The notes under the pieces are model-generated. The model did no database searches and was not told where the DNA came from. It worked only from the letters and a program-made list of their open reading frames with translations. Positions 35,803-39,059 of a stretch of DNA of 64,000 nt are shown here, piece after piece. Source of the DNA: Heptranchias perlo (lineage: Eukaryota); contig NW_027139442.1 of assembly GCF_035084215.1 (NCBI RefSeq), positions 11,160,001-11,224,000 on the forward strand. Reading direction: 5' to 3'. Each line of letters starts with the position of its first letter. Position 1 is the first letter of the stretch. The translations under genes and the position numbers were made by a program.

Positions 35803-37546
35803 AAGCGCCTTATTTCACGAGGAGAGAGAAGTAGAGTGTTTCTGTGGAGTTTCACACTGAATTGCGCCCTTTGGATTTTTGGTACTTGAATCACAGACAA
35901 TAAATAGTTCCCAAACATCAGCCCCTGAACAGACACAACAAGCTGGTGGAATTTCTCATTCATAGATATTAATAAGAGGATGACAAAAGCAAATCGGAAG
36001 AGGTTAGGAAGAAATCACAAAAACAATTACAGAAGAAAACAGGAACCACGAAATCAAATTATCAAGGTATATGAAAAGAAATAATAAATTATTCTACAGA
36101 CACAAAAATAACAAAATGAAAATCAGAATAGTTTGAGTGCCACTGAGGGATGCACACGATAAACTAACAGGTAACGTCAGCGAAATGGCAGAAATATTGA
36201 ATTGTTACTTTGCTCATATTTACCCGGGAGTTTAACAGGGTGAACATGATATTAAAGGAAGAGGTCAATAAAGATATCAAGACATTTAAGTTAGAAAGGG
36301 TGGTTAAACTGGTCCTGATGGATTGTATCCGTGCATATTAAATGAAGCAAGGGAAGAGATAGCAGAGGCACTGTTACATATATAGAAAAAAATCATCACA
36401 AAGTGGAATAGTGCCAAAGGACTGGATGACAGCTAATGGGATTGTTATATTTTAAAACAGGAGATAGAACAAGTGCAGGGAACTATAGACCAGTTAACGA
36501 AAGGTCGGTGGTGGGGATGATCATGGAATCCTTTACTCAATGATGCAGTAGATAAACATCTAGAAACCGAATATATAATAAAGAATAGTCAGCACGGATT
36601 TCAGAAAGGGAAGGTTTAATAGTTTGACAGAAGGTTTGACAGTTTAATTTACAGTTCAACAGAACTTATCTCCTTTTCAATTCTGTTCCATTAGAAATAA
36701 ACCTCTGTGTTTGTTTTCTATGACATTATCAACCTGAGTTGCTACTTTAATGATTTGTCAATCTGTACCCCTAAATCCCTTTGCTCTTCGACCCCATTTA
36801 GACTCTTATTTTCCAAGCAGTGTGTGGCCTCCTTATTCCCCCGAGCAAAATGCACCACGTCACAACTTTCTATATGGAAATTCAATGGCCATTTTCACCG
36901 CCTTTCAGCAAGTTTATTAAAGTCTTCTTGAATTTTGTTAGATTCTTCCTCAGTATAGGCTATACCCACTAAATAATTACAAGCATTTCACACGACATTA
37001 CAACAAATGTTTGCTCCAACAAAATGTTCTCCATTCCCAGTTTCTCTGAATCCCACTCGTGTAATATAATGTGAAGAATGAGTTTATCTTCTGTCCCTCT
37101 CTCATCTGCAAACTTCAATGACCCGGGGTTTGGGGACATCTACTGGCCGGAAGCAGAACTGCAACAGTTCGGAACAAATTGCTGAAACCGGACAATGTGC
37201 AGTGTGAGCGTGTTTGTGATTGGTGGCAGGTTCTAAATCTGATTGGATATCTGAAGAAACCTATCAGAGAGTGAAAGGAAAAGGTGACGTTTATCACTCC
37301 CAATGACCCAATCACAATCATTGCCTTCCACCATCCCTTATTAGCATAGGGTTGTGGGGCTGCCTATTTAATCCGAGCTCGGAGTGGATTTGTGTCATTT
37401 CTGGGTCTGAAATTGAGTTTTGAGATGCCTGAGGACAAGAAAGCAGCTCCCAAGAAGGGCGCCAAGAAAACCTTGAGTAAAGCACCAGCCAAGGGCGGCA
37501 AGAAGCGGAGAAAGTCGAGGAAGGAGAGTTACTCCATCTACATCTA

Positions 37547-37769
37547 TAATTGTAAACAATTTTACAACACCAAGTTATAGTCCAGCAATTTTATTTTAAA
37601 TTCACAAGCTTTCGGAGATTTTCTCCTTCCTCAGGCAAAACATTTGCCTGAGGAAGGAGAAAATCTCCGAAAGCTTGTGAATTTAAAATAAAATTGCTGG
37701 ACTATAACTTGGTGTTGTAAAATTGTTTACAATTGTCAACCCCAGTCCATCACCGGCATCTCCACATCA
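37547..37769 (+). mobile_element. Palindromic Penelope-like element terminal fragment with 12-bp target-site duplication
   Basis: Perfect inverted arms at 37548-37639 and 37643-37734, then a 35-nt tail. CATCTACATCTA is duplicated at 37535-37546 and 37770-37781. Confidence 0.8.
37642..37682 (+). ncRNA. Minimal type I hammerhead ribozyme motif; mirror copy on the minus strand at ~37600-37640
   Basis: AUUUGC-CUGAGGA-A-GGAGA-AAA-UCUCC-GAAA-GC-UU-GUGAAU gives the core, stem II, a palindromic AAGCUU in place of helix III, and a 6-bp stem I. Confidence 0.7.
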
Positions 37770-39059
37770 CATCTACATCTACAAAGTGATGAAGCAGGTT
37801 CACCCCGACACCGGCATCTCCTCCAAGGCCATGAGCATCATGAACTCCTTTGTGAACGATATTTTCGAGCGCATCGCGGGTGAGGCTTCCCGCCTGGCCC
37901 ATTATAATAAACGGGCGACCATCAGCTCCCGGGAGATCCAGACCGCCGTGCGCCTGCTGCTGCCCGGGGAACTGGCCAAACACGCCGTGTCGGAAGGGAC
38001 AAAGGCGGTGACCAAGTACACCAGCTCCAAGTAAAACTCCACAATCAACTGAAAAAAACTAAACACAAAGGCTCTTTTCAGAGCCACCCACAGTCTCTCT
38101 GAAGACGCTGTACCGACCCCTCTGTATGGAATCATTTTACTGTAGATAGTTTGATACTAACTGTCTCTCTATAACTCTTGTGCTTTTCTAATTTCTCTTG
38201 AAATCTGGAAGATTCTCATAATCACTGCCAGGTATAATCTATGTGTCGCTTTCTATTTAGTTCCAATAACCAAAAACGTGTCCCTGATCCTCTCATTCCC
38301 GTTCATATTCCGCCCCTTCCCCCGCGTCTGCCCCTTCATAGCCGTCTTAAGGCGATGGATTAGACTTCATTCCTTTCTCCTTTTCACGTTTGTTTGTTCA
38401 TTATTCGGGAATATCACTTTGAGAACCGCAATGATTTGAAATGCAGCAACCCTGAAAGGGACGTCGCACCGAGTACAGAAAAGTCTGAAGGCTCTGTCAC
38501 TGTTCGACTTCTTACACCAGGAGTCTCGGCTCCGGTTTCGATCGCGCTGCAGCTCCAGTGAACAGGGATCAATCCACAATCTGTGGTTTGTTACTTTTAC
38601 AAAGATTGAGCTGGAATCTGCCCCGTTACAAAATGGGACTTTATTCCCGCCGGATTGAAAGCGAACGATGAAGGGAGCCGGATTTTAAACGGATTGTAAA
38701 AGATTCTGGAAGTTGTGACGGGAAATGTGGAATAACAGAGTAAAAGGAGAGAGATTTTTTAATCTTTGTCTCAAGGCGACATTATTTACTAAATCCGCTT
38801 CTTGTTTTACAAATATTTTGGCGGGCTTTTCAAATTTCAAAAAAAACGGTTCAGTTCGGTATTTTCCGCCCTTTCTCATTGCCGGCTATTGATTGGCGAA
38901 TAAAACAGCTCTCTGATTGGGCTGTTCGCTGAACCAATGAGATTGAGAACAGATTGACCAATTACAAGTGCCCCCACTTTATACCTCCAGAAGGTATAAG
39001 AAGGGCGAGTGCGGGAGGATTTCTTCATTCTTTGTGAAAGTGTTTGTGAGATTGTGGAA

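What the first reader, a model, noticed from the sequence alone, without database searches (positions are those of the whole stretch)
37535..37781. Perfect palindrome with back-to-back hammerhead ribozyme motifs inserted into an H2B gene
Seen: a 223-bp insert with a 12-bp target-site duplication, two identical 92-bp inverted arms around a 3-nt loop, and a CUGAGGA/stem II/GAAA motif on each strand with palindromic AAGCUU replacing helix III. Known: Penelope-like retroelements carry minimal hammerheads proposed to act as dimers and often insert with an inverted 5' copy of the terminus. Inference: a very recent Penelope-type insertion (no arm mismatches, host H2B otherwise unmutated), with predicted cleavage after 37676.
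Basis: partly seen in the sequence, partly recalled or inferred. Interest (0 to 1): 0.8.

Follow-up and report, generated by a model that had tools for sequence, protein, structure and literature searches.

The report
Penelope retroelement stub in histone gene
This hairpin is the short front end of a very abundant Penelope-like jumping gene, pasted twice back to back into one of hundreds of histone H2B genes; the pattern is of a known kind, but its many sister copies show where the element's RNA probably starts and which DNA sites its enzyme prefers to cut.

Summary
The insert is a young stub of a Neptune-type Penelope-like element (PLE). The genome holds 9,130 exact copies of its hammerhead 33-mer, 1,158 similar hairpins, 80 with this exact apex, and intact 902-aa RT/GIY-YIG source copies. 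The inverted-copy-plus-tail layout is published.

The sister copies add three things. (1) 117 of 121 inverted pairs have exactly one tailed arm, and either arm can be the longer, which points to priming from both cut strands. (2) Arm 5' ends pile up 30 nt below a TATA box; in a sister subfamily the pile-up moves with the TATA box (-9 to -16), as predicted, so it is probably the transcript start. (3) Targets show a symmetric motif around a 12-bp duplication; it predicted the exact bases of two further histone-gene insertion sites. Six independent insertions hit this H2B site.

Read support was not obtained. The scan earlier noted similar stubs and pile-ups in other genomes.

The parts
37425..38034 (+). 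Histone H2B coding sequence, interrupted; premature TAG at 37578-37580
37535..37546 (+). Target-site duplication, left copy (H2B nt 111-122)
37547..37547 (+). Single T: untemplated base, or a C-to-T change in a longer duplication; not resolved
   Evidence: (family D8, 15 nt at 93%)
37548..37639 (-). Inverted, tailless arm; ends at the proximal end site (+88 from the first C of CCTGAGG at 37647)
37600..37639 (-). Minus-strand copy of the minimal hammerhead, helix I cut to 5 bp
37640..37642 (+). Apex loop; junction with 2-nt overlap, the same in 80 loci
37638..37769 (+). Direct, tailed arm: 132 nt from position -9 (inferred transcript start) to the base before the ORF start; identical to ORF-intact source copies
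37642..37682 (+). Minimal type I hammerhead motif; predicted cut after 37676
37695..37758 (+). Predicted stem-loop that spans the proximal end site and most of the tail (z -2.74; 3 of 200 shuffles as stable)
37735..37769 (+). 35-nt tail, on one arm only; 37751-37763 equals a 13-mer of H2B 28 nt beyond the right duplication
37770..37781 (+). Target-site duplication, right copy
37517..37527 (+). H2B 11-mer equal to 37650-37660 of the hammerhead; meaning unknown
   Evidence: (pair I14)
38065..38110 (+). Histone 3' stem-loop of the host gene, intact

Best explanation
The insert is a retrotransposition product of a Neptune-type PLE (membership about 0.97; the confidence below is for the mechanism). 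Shown: source element, one tail per inverted pair, 12-bp duplication, symmetric target motif, 5'-end pile-up tied to TATA spacing. Inferred: (1) a source copy is transcribed from a TATA promoter in its pseudo-LTR, so the RNA starts about 9 nt before the hammerhead core; (2) a dimer of the RT/GIY-YIG protein cuts both target strands 12 bp apart within a loose dyad, C-N-N-T-G-Y-C | T-N10-A | G-R-C-A-N-N-G; (3) each cut end primes reverse transcription inside the RNA, one at the tail end beside the ORF start and one 35 nt upstream; (4) in the 5' leader both cDNAs run off the RNA end after about 100-130 nt; (5) their 3' ends anneal at a micro-palindrome (AAA/TTT here) and copy each other, which gives a head-to-head palindrome with one tail. 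The hammerhead rides along uncut and is not needed for this event. The result is a null allele of one of at least 326 H2B genes.
For: Source: 3.08-kb tandem units, one 902-aa ORF, RVT_1 E 3.3e-10, YIDD, CxxxxCxxC linker, VVY..YIG. One tail: 39 of 50 hairpins tail+tailless, none tail+tail or tailless+tailless, 11 complex; 117 of 121 pairs. Longer leader on the tailed arm 15, on the tailless arm 18, equal 6; arms with only the tailless end and no partner in view also occur. Commonest apexes leave loops of 2 nt (19 of 50) or none (28-nt gap, 6 of 50), poor for folding back on one strand; overlap of 1-6 nt in 40 of 50. Arms share subfamily variants (discordant 2 of 33 and 0 of 33, about 15-16 expected) and lengths (9 of 12 long insertions within 150 nt). 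5' ends: 895 of 6,414 stop at -9, 218 of 5,519 at -10; TATAAAT at -39; sister subfamily TATAAAT at -45, 1,291 of 6,075 stop at -16 (58 of 59 inspected are true stops) against about 4% at -9. Target motif from 84 sites, 82% above the 95th background percentile in leave-one-out; it predicted hits at H2B +6 and H4 +10, found at those bases. In vitro precedent: both strands cut and extended, two RT start sites around the tail, dimer predicted, cleavage not needed (PMC11167929).
Against: No RNA 5' ends were seen; the start site rests on TATA spacing and end counts. A cap-derived G is not shown (G precedes 27 of 59 stops at -16, but the partner arm explains many). Both hot spots also lie at short self-complementary words, which raise hairpin counts. 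Loops between perfect inverted repeats could flip after insertion and mimic the 15:18 split. In long insertions the tailless arm is longer in 9 of 12, not half. Shared variants and matched lengths fit fold-back equally well. In vitro, start sites did not differ between strands, so the one-of-each rule has no biochemical basis yet. Loci were chosen by pattern and come mostly from the first contigs, not at random.
Confidence: 0.6

Rival explanations
1. Fold-back: one cDNA, primed at one cut, folds on itself at the micro-palindrome and copies itself; the endonuclease then trims or resolves the second end 35 nt short, leaving one tail (close to the self-priming and EN-resolution ideas in print).
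For: Arms share variants and lengths; some apexes hold mirrored non-native bases (L147). Published readings: self-priming on an antisense template (PMC3846280); tail from EN-mediated resolution (PMC8557442).
Against: If the tailed cDNA folds back, the longer leader must be on the tailed arm; it is on the tailless arm in 18 of 33. Loops of 0-2 nt are the commonest. Two RT start sites were measured directly in a relative.
Confidence: 0.27
2. The 223-bp hairpin is a self-propagating non-autonomous element (MITE-like or retrozyme-like) copied as a unit.
For: 80 loci share the exact apex; 1,158 short hairpins.
Against: The same apex occurs in both orientations to the tail, ends vary by several bases, 14 different gap lengths in 50 loci; arm lengths run on from 0.1 to 2.9 kb; no tandem units as in retrozymes.
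Confidence: 0.05
3. Hammerhead cleavage shapes the insert or acts on the H2B transcript.
For: Core intact; pairing kept across subfamilies, with an A-U to G-C change in stem II and wobble-type changes in helix I; AAGCUU self-duplex -6.5 kcal/mol.
Against: The arm runs 39 nt past the cut site; no excess of ends there; 64 kcal/mol penalty in the hairpin; low or protein-dependent activity in relatives.
Confidence: 0.05
4. Assembly fold-back artefact.
For: Perfect palindrome; no reads were laid on the junctions.
Against: A 12-bp duplication of the family's modal length (84 of 174), a one-sided tail, and five other H2B genes hit at the same site with different structures.
Confidence: 0.03

Closest known systems
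EN+ Penelope-like element insertions with an inverted 5'-truncated copy and a one-sided 30-40-bp tail (Craig et al. 2021, PMC8557442, passages; Arkhipova et al. 2013, PMC3846280, parts 1-4 of 5)
   Same: Tandem units with pseudo-LTRs, head-to-head inverted copy, tail at one end, palindromic junction, TSD, putative TATA/Inr in the pLTR
   Different: Here thousands of near-identical copies allow counts; TSD mode 12 bp (8-10 bp in the rotifer cases); those papers propose self-priming or EN resolution, not double priming
Poseidon of Anolis carolinensis, PAc (Frangieh et al. 2024, PMC11167929, parts 1-2 of 4 and passages)
   Same: Two end sites flanking the tail; both strands cut; hammerhead dispensable for insertion
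   Different: PAc is Poseidon clade, its ORF starts in stem II and RT starts 111-118 nt into the ORF; here the ORF starts right after the tail and carries the Cys linker. The text seen does not treat inverted insertions, a transcript start or a dyad target motif
Minimal hammerheads of metazoan PLEs (Cervera and de la Pena 2014, PMC4209133, parts 1-2 of 4)
   Same: Type I core, bulge before stem II, G10.1-C11.1, palindromic 15.2-16.2, solo copies and opposite-strand pairs
   Different: Activity untested here; in this locus the motif is locked in a 92-bp duplex
Non-LTR retrozymes (bioRxiv 10.64898/2026.07.22.740005, part 1 of 5)
   Same: Short non-coding PLE-related sequence with a type I hammerhead
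   Different: Retrozymes are head-to-tail tandem arrays; this is one inverted pair with a TSD
L1 twin priming (recalled, not read)
   Same: Both target ends prime, giving an inversion joined at microhomology
   Different: In L1 the two parts do not overlap; here both arms copy the same stretch

Membership tests
EN+ Penelope-like elements | Single ORF with RT domain in the source element | tested here: met
   902 aa from the ATG after the tail; RVT_1 E 3.3e-10; YIDD at 532
EN+ Penelope-like elements | C-terminal GIY-YIG endonuclease | tested here: met
   VVY..YIG at 790-807 by motif; Pfam gave no GIY-YIG hit; Atlas neighbours carry PF01541 in 26-27% of members in two clusters
EN+ Penelope-like elements | Tandem arrangement forming pseudo-LTRs | tested here: met
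   3,081-3,086-bp head-to-tail units
EN+ Penelope-like elements | Inverted 5'-truncated copy and 30-40-bp tail at one end | tested here: met
   35-nt tail; 117 of 121 pairs
EN+ Penelope-like elements | Hammerhead motif in the pseudo-LTR | tested here: met
   Motif 122 nt upstream of the ATG; no Rfam hit at gathering score
Neptune (or Nematis) clade | CX2-5CxxC linker between RT and EN | tested here: met
   CHGNLCKTC at 753; definition from PMC8557442
Neptune (or Nematis) clade | RT phylogeny separating Neptune from Nematis | not tested
Minimal PLE hammerhead | Core, bulge, G10.1-C11.1, palindromic helix III | tested here: met
   against PMC4209133
Minimal PLE hammerhead | Self-cleavage as a dimer or with protein | not testable with these tools
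   Indirect genomic sign absent
Non-LTR retrozymes | Head-to-tail tandem units, each with a hammerhead | tested here: not met
   One inverted pair; no other family copy in the window
Self-propagating hairpin element (MITE-like) | Fixed ends and fixed centre across copies | tested here: not met
   Ends, gap length and loop orientation vary

The most novel reading that the evidence does not exclude
This PLE family homes to multicopy histone genes beyond what its cut-site motif explains, with the H2B site favoured because the element RNA matches H2B on both sides of the cut (11 nt upstream, 13 nt downstream) and tethers the enzyme there. For: 6 independent insertions at one site among 326 genes; about 10 histone-gene events where 0.4-1.2 were expected from the motif under an assumed 10,000-30,000 tailed ends; residual excess of this site over other histone windows p about 0.016. 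Against: H2B +6 and H4 +10 are hit at their motif-best bases (not checked for such matches); copies of the element, with a perfect tail match, are hit only as the motif predicts; 0 of 52 other hairpins have a tail match over 9 nt nearby.
Probability: 0.1. Interest if true: 0.8.

Novelty: new member of a known kind. Interest (0 to 1): 0.5.

Why it matters
How Penelope-like elements make their inverted copies and one-sided tail is still open; print offers self-priming or endonuclease resolution, and one in vitro system. This family has intact ORFs and thousands of near-identical young copies, and yields three sharp predictions: a transcript start at -9 (sister subfamily -16), a 12-bp staggered cut in a dyad motif, and one primer per start site with the two cDNAs finishing each other. 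Each can be tested with the published PAc-type assay. The locus itself is an ordinary loss of one redundant H2B copy.

Tried and rejected
DNA similarity search of the genome found nothing, not even the locus itself, because common words are skipped; patterns were used instead. Rfam at gathering score: no hammerhead. Public runs: four DNA-type runs of one sample hold 0.58-0.63 of the words; none was laid, so this is no evidence. Hammerhead cleavage as the cause of 5' ends: rejected (the script called 21 of 30 control loci truncated, three of which are continuing sister-subfamily arms, so 18-21). Hammerhead edge as the cause of the pile-up: rejected by the shift to -16. Cap-derived G: inconclusive. 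Tail-homology targeting as a general rule: rejected. Low-scoring histone windows gave no hits; H2B 220-250, moderately scoring, gave one non-histone match only. Cofold of two minimal motifs did not give the dimeric hammerhead as its best structure. Paper searches for a shark Neptune element, PLE twin priming, a PLE TATA start, histone-gene targeting or a target consensus found nothing that treats them; the library lacks most subscription papers, and the figures in the supplements of PMC11167929 could not be seen.

Full report
Observation. The structure is as described: a 12-bp duplication at 37535-37546 and 37770-37781, 92-nt perfect arms around a 3-nt loop, and 35 further bases on the right arm only. 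It breaks an otherwise ordinary H2B gene with a TAG at 37578-37580. The window is a histone cluster in a 3.25-Gb genome; that it is a cartilaginous fish is my inference from recall, not a tool result. Positions below count from the first C of CCTGAGG (37647 = 0).

What it is. The hammerhead 33-mer occurs 9,130 times exactly. Some copies lie in 3.08-kb head-to-tail units with one 902-aa ORF that starts at the base after the tail. [quoted passage not shown] The window's 37638-37769 is identical to such copies. Back-to-back motifs up to 30 nt apart occur at 1,158 loci, and 80 share this exact apex. An inverted truncated copy with a one-sided 30-40-bp tail is the published PLE layout, and opposite-strand motif pairs were noted in 2014.

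One tail per pair. Of the 50 hairpins listed, 39 have one tailed and one tailless arm, none has two of a kind, 11 are complex. Over all fetched loci, 147 divergent pairs were found, 121 had both cores intact, and 117 of these have exactly one tail (loci chosen by pattern, not at random). The arm with the longer native leader is the tailed one in 15, the tailless one in 18, equal in 6. The arms share subfamily variants (2 of 33 and 0 of 33 discordant, 15-16 expected). In 12 long inverted insertions (of 16 regions fetched; four tandem or unpaired ones left out) 9 have arms within 150 nt of each other; the tailless arm is longer in 9. Junction overlaps of 1-6 nt occur in 40 of 50, and the commonest apexes leave 2 or 0 unpaired bases. 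The PAc enzyme cuts and extends both strands and starts at two sites that flank the tail (PMC11167929). I infer two primers, one per site, whose cDNAs anneal and finish each other. Fold-back with later trimming remains the main rival; loop flipping after insertion is not excluded.

The apex is probably the RNA start. In 95 arms from the first 100 places, 16 stop at -9, 9 of them outside simple hairpins. Genome-wide 895 of 6,414 arms that reach -9 stop there, against 218 of 5,519 at -10. TATAAAT lies at -39. A sister subfamily keeps TATAAATGCG at -45 with an Inr-like TCATTTC (Inr consensus recalled). I noted beforehand (note, written with the searches) that its pile-up should sit at -16: 1,291 of 6,075 stop there (58 of 59 inspected are true stops), while 681 arms depart at -9, of which 10 of 23 inspected are true stops, about 4%. 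No RNA ends were seen, and a cap G is not shown. D. virilis Penelope has a TATA-less promoter (PMC2377424, abstract and passages); a rotifer pLTR has a putative TATA and Inr.

The hammerhead. It matches the minimal PLE type, and pairing is kept across subfamilies. It did not shape this insert: the arm runs 39 nt past the cut site, and arms starting at the cut site (164; 26 of 30 inspected truncated) are no commoner than two bases upstream (234; 18-21 of 30). In the hairpin the fold costs 64 kcal/mol. This agrees with PAc, where cleavage is not needed.

Target choice. Duplications in 174 two-armed insertions measure 12 nt in 84, 13 in 46, 11 in 14, 14-16 in 16 and 9 or fewer in 14. The 84 12-nt sites give a mirror-symmetric motif, C at -6, T-G at -3/-2, C at 0 and their complements on the far side, as a dimeric nuclease would leave. 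A tail end lies at H2B nt 111-121 in 5 genes including this one, each with a different structure, from both subfamilies, and once in the opposite orientation; 326 H2B genes hold the 30-mer counted. Position 115, used by 3 of the 6, scores 6.3 bits, above the window's 99th percentile; 111 scores 2.1. The window's own event can also be read as a 115-126 cut with a 4-nt slip and one C-to-T change; I could not decide. Three low-scoring windows gave 0 hits. The motif's top sites H2B +6 and H4 +10 gave 2 and 3 hits at exactly those bases, 2 and 2 independent events; histone 3' UTRs gave 2 matches, one beside the best H2A site; H2B 220-250 gave none in a histone gene. Hits exceed motif-based expectation roughly ten-fold, but the number of tailed ends was assumed (10,000-30,000) and gene counts for the control words were not measured. 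The 13-nt tail match in H2B is unusual (none over 9 nt in 52 hairpins or 2,897 random places), yet element copies with a perfect match are hit only as the motif predicts (48 matches, 41 in one satellite, one clear self-insertion; 0.2-1.9 expected).

Novelty. The element is a new member of a known kind. My ten paper searches found no account of a TATA-linked 5'-end pile-up, a one-tail rule explained by double priming, a dyad target motif or histone-gene hits for PLEs; the library lacks most subscription journals. Earlier notes of this scan report similar hairpin stubs and a pile-up read as the RNA start in other genomes; they are unchecked and were seen after my reading was set. I saw no note on the TATA shift, the target motif or histone genes. 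Read support and polymorphism remain open.

Noticed in passing
L361, L362, L364, L365, L366 (G000 C1275, C1456): Five more independent insertions of this family at H2B nt 111-121, from both subfamilies and in both orientations.
   Followed up: yes
L367-L372 (G000 C1499, C1456, C1562): Insertions at H2B +6 (two events), H4 +10 (two events, one duplicated) and beside an H2A 3' UTR, at the bases the target motif scores best.
   Followed up: yes
L241-L270: Sister subfamily with the same tail but a different promoter region and compensatory stem II; over 6,000 arms.
   Followed up: partly
G000:C8:91596971-91599857: A 37-bp satellite made of the PLE tail plus a few bases; 41 matches; suggests repeated copying of the tail alone.
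   Followed up: no
L034:5673-5713: A tail-only 41-nt piece (+83 to +123) joined head to head with another copy and followed by an ORF.
   Followed up: no
L001, L007, L100, L101: Extra A bases upstream of arms that stop at -9; possibly repeated copying at the template end.
   Followed up: no
L214, L215/L245: Two hairpins whose arms differ at a subfamily-polymorphic base of the hammerhead core (C versus G): possibly two different template RNAs.
   Followed up: partly
window 37517-37527: H2B 11-mer equal to the hammerhead's 37650-37660, 8 nt upstream of the duplication.
   Followed up: no
window 37230-37271 and 38909-38950: 42-nt inverted similarity (74%) between the H2B and H2A upstream regions, with CCAAT-like words; probably shared promoter elements.
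   Followed up: no
window 7434-7505 (-), 57621-57692 (+), 8086-8472, 56723-57181: Two Rfam tRNA matches (the second weaker) and degenerate H2A copies within the histone cluster.
   Followed up: no
loci scanned: Two motifs of a more distant hammerhead family with stem II AGGUC/GACCU and palindromic ACGU in helix III.
   Followed up: no
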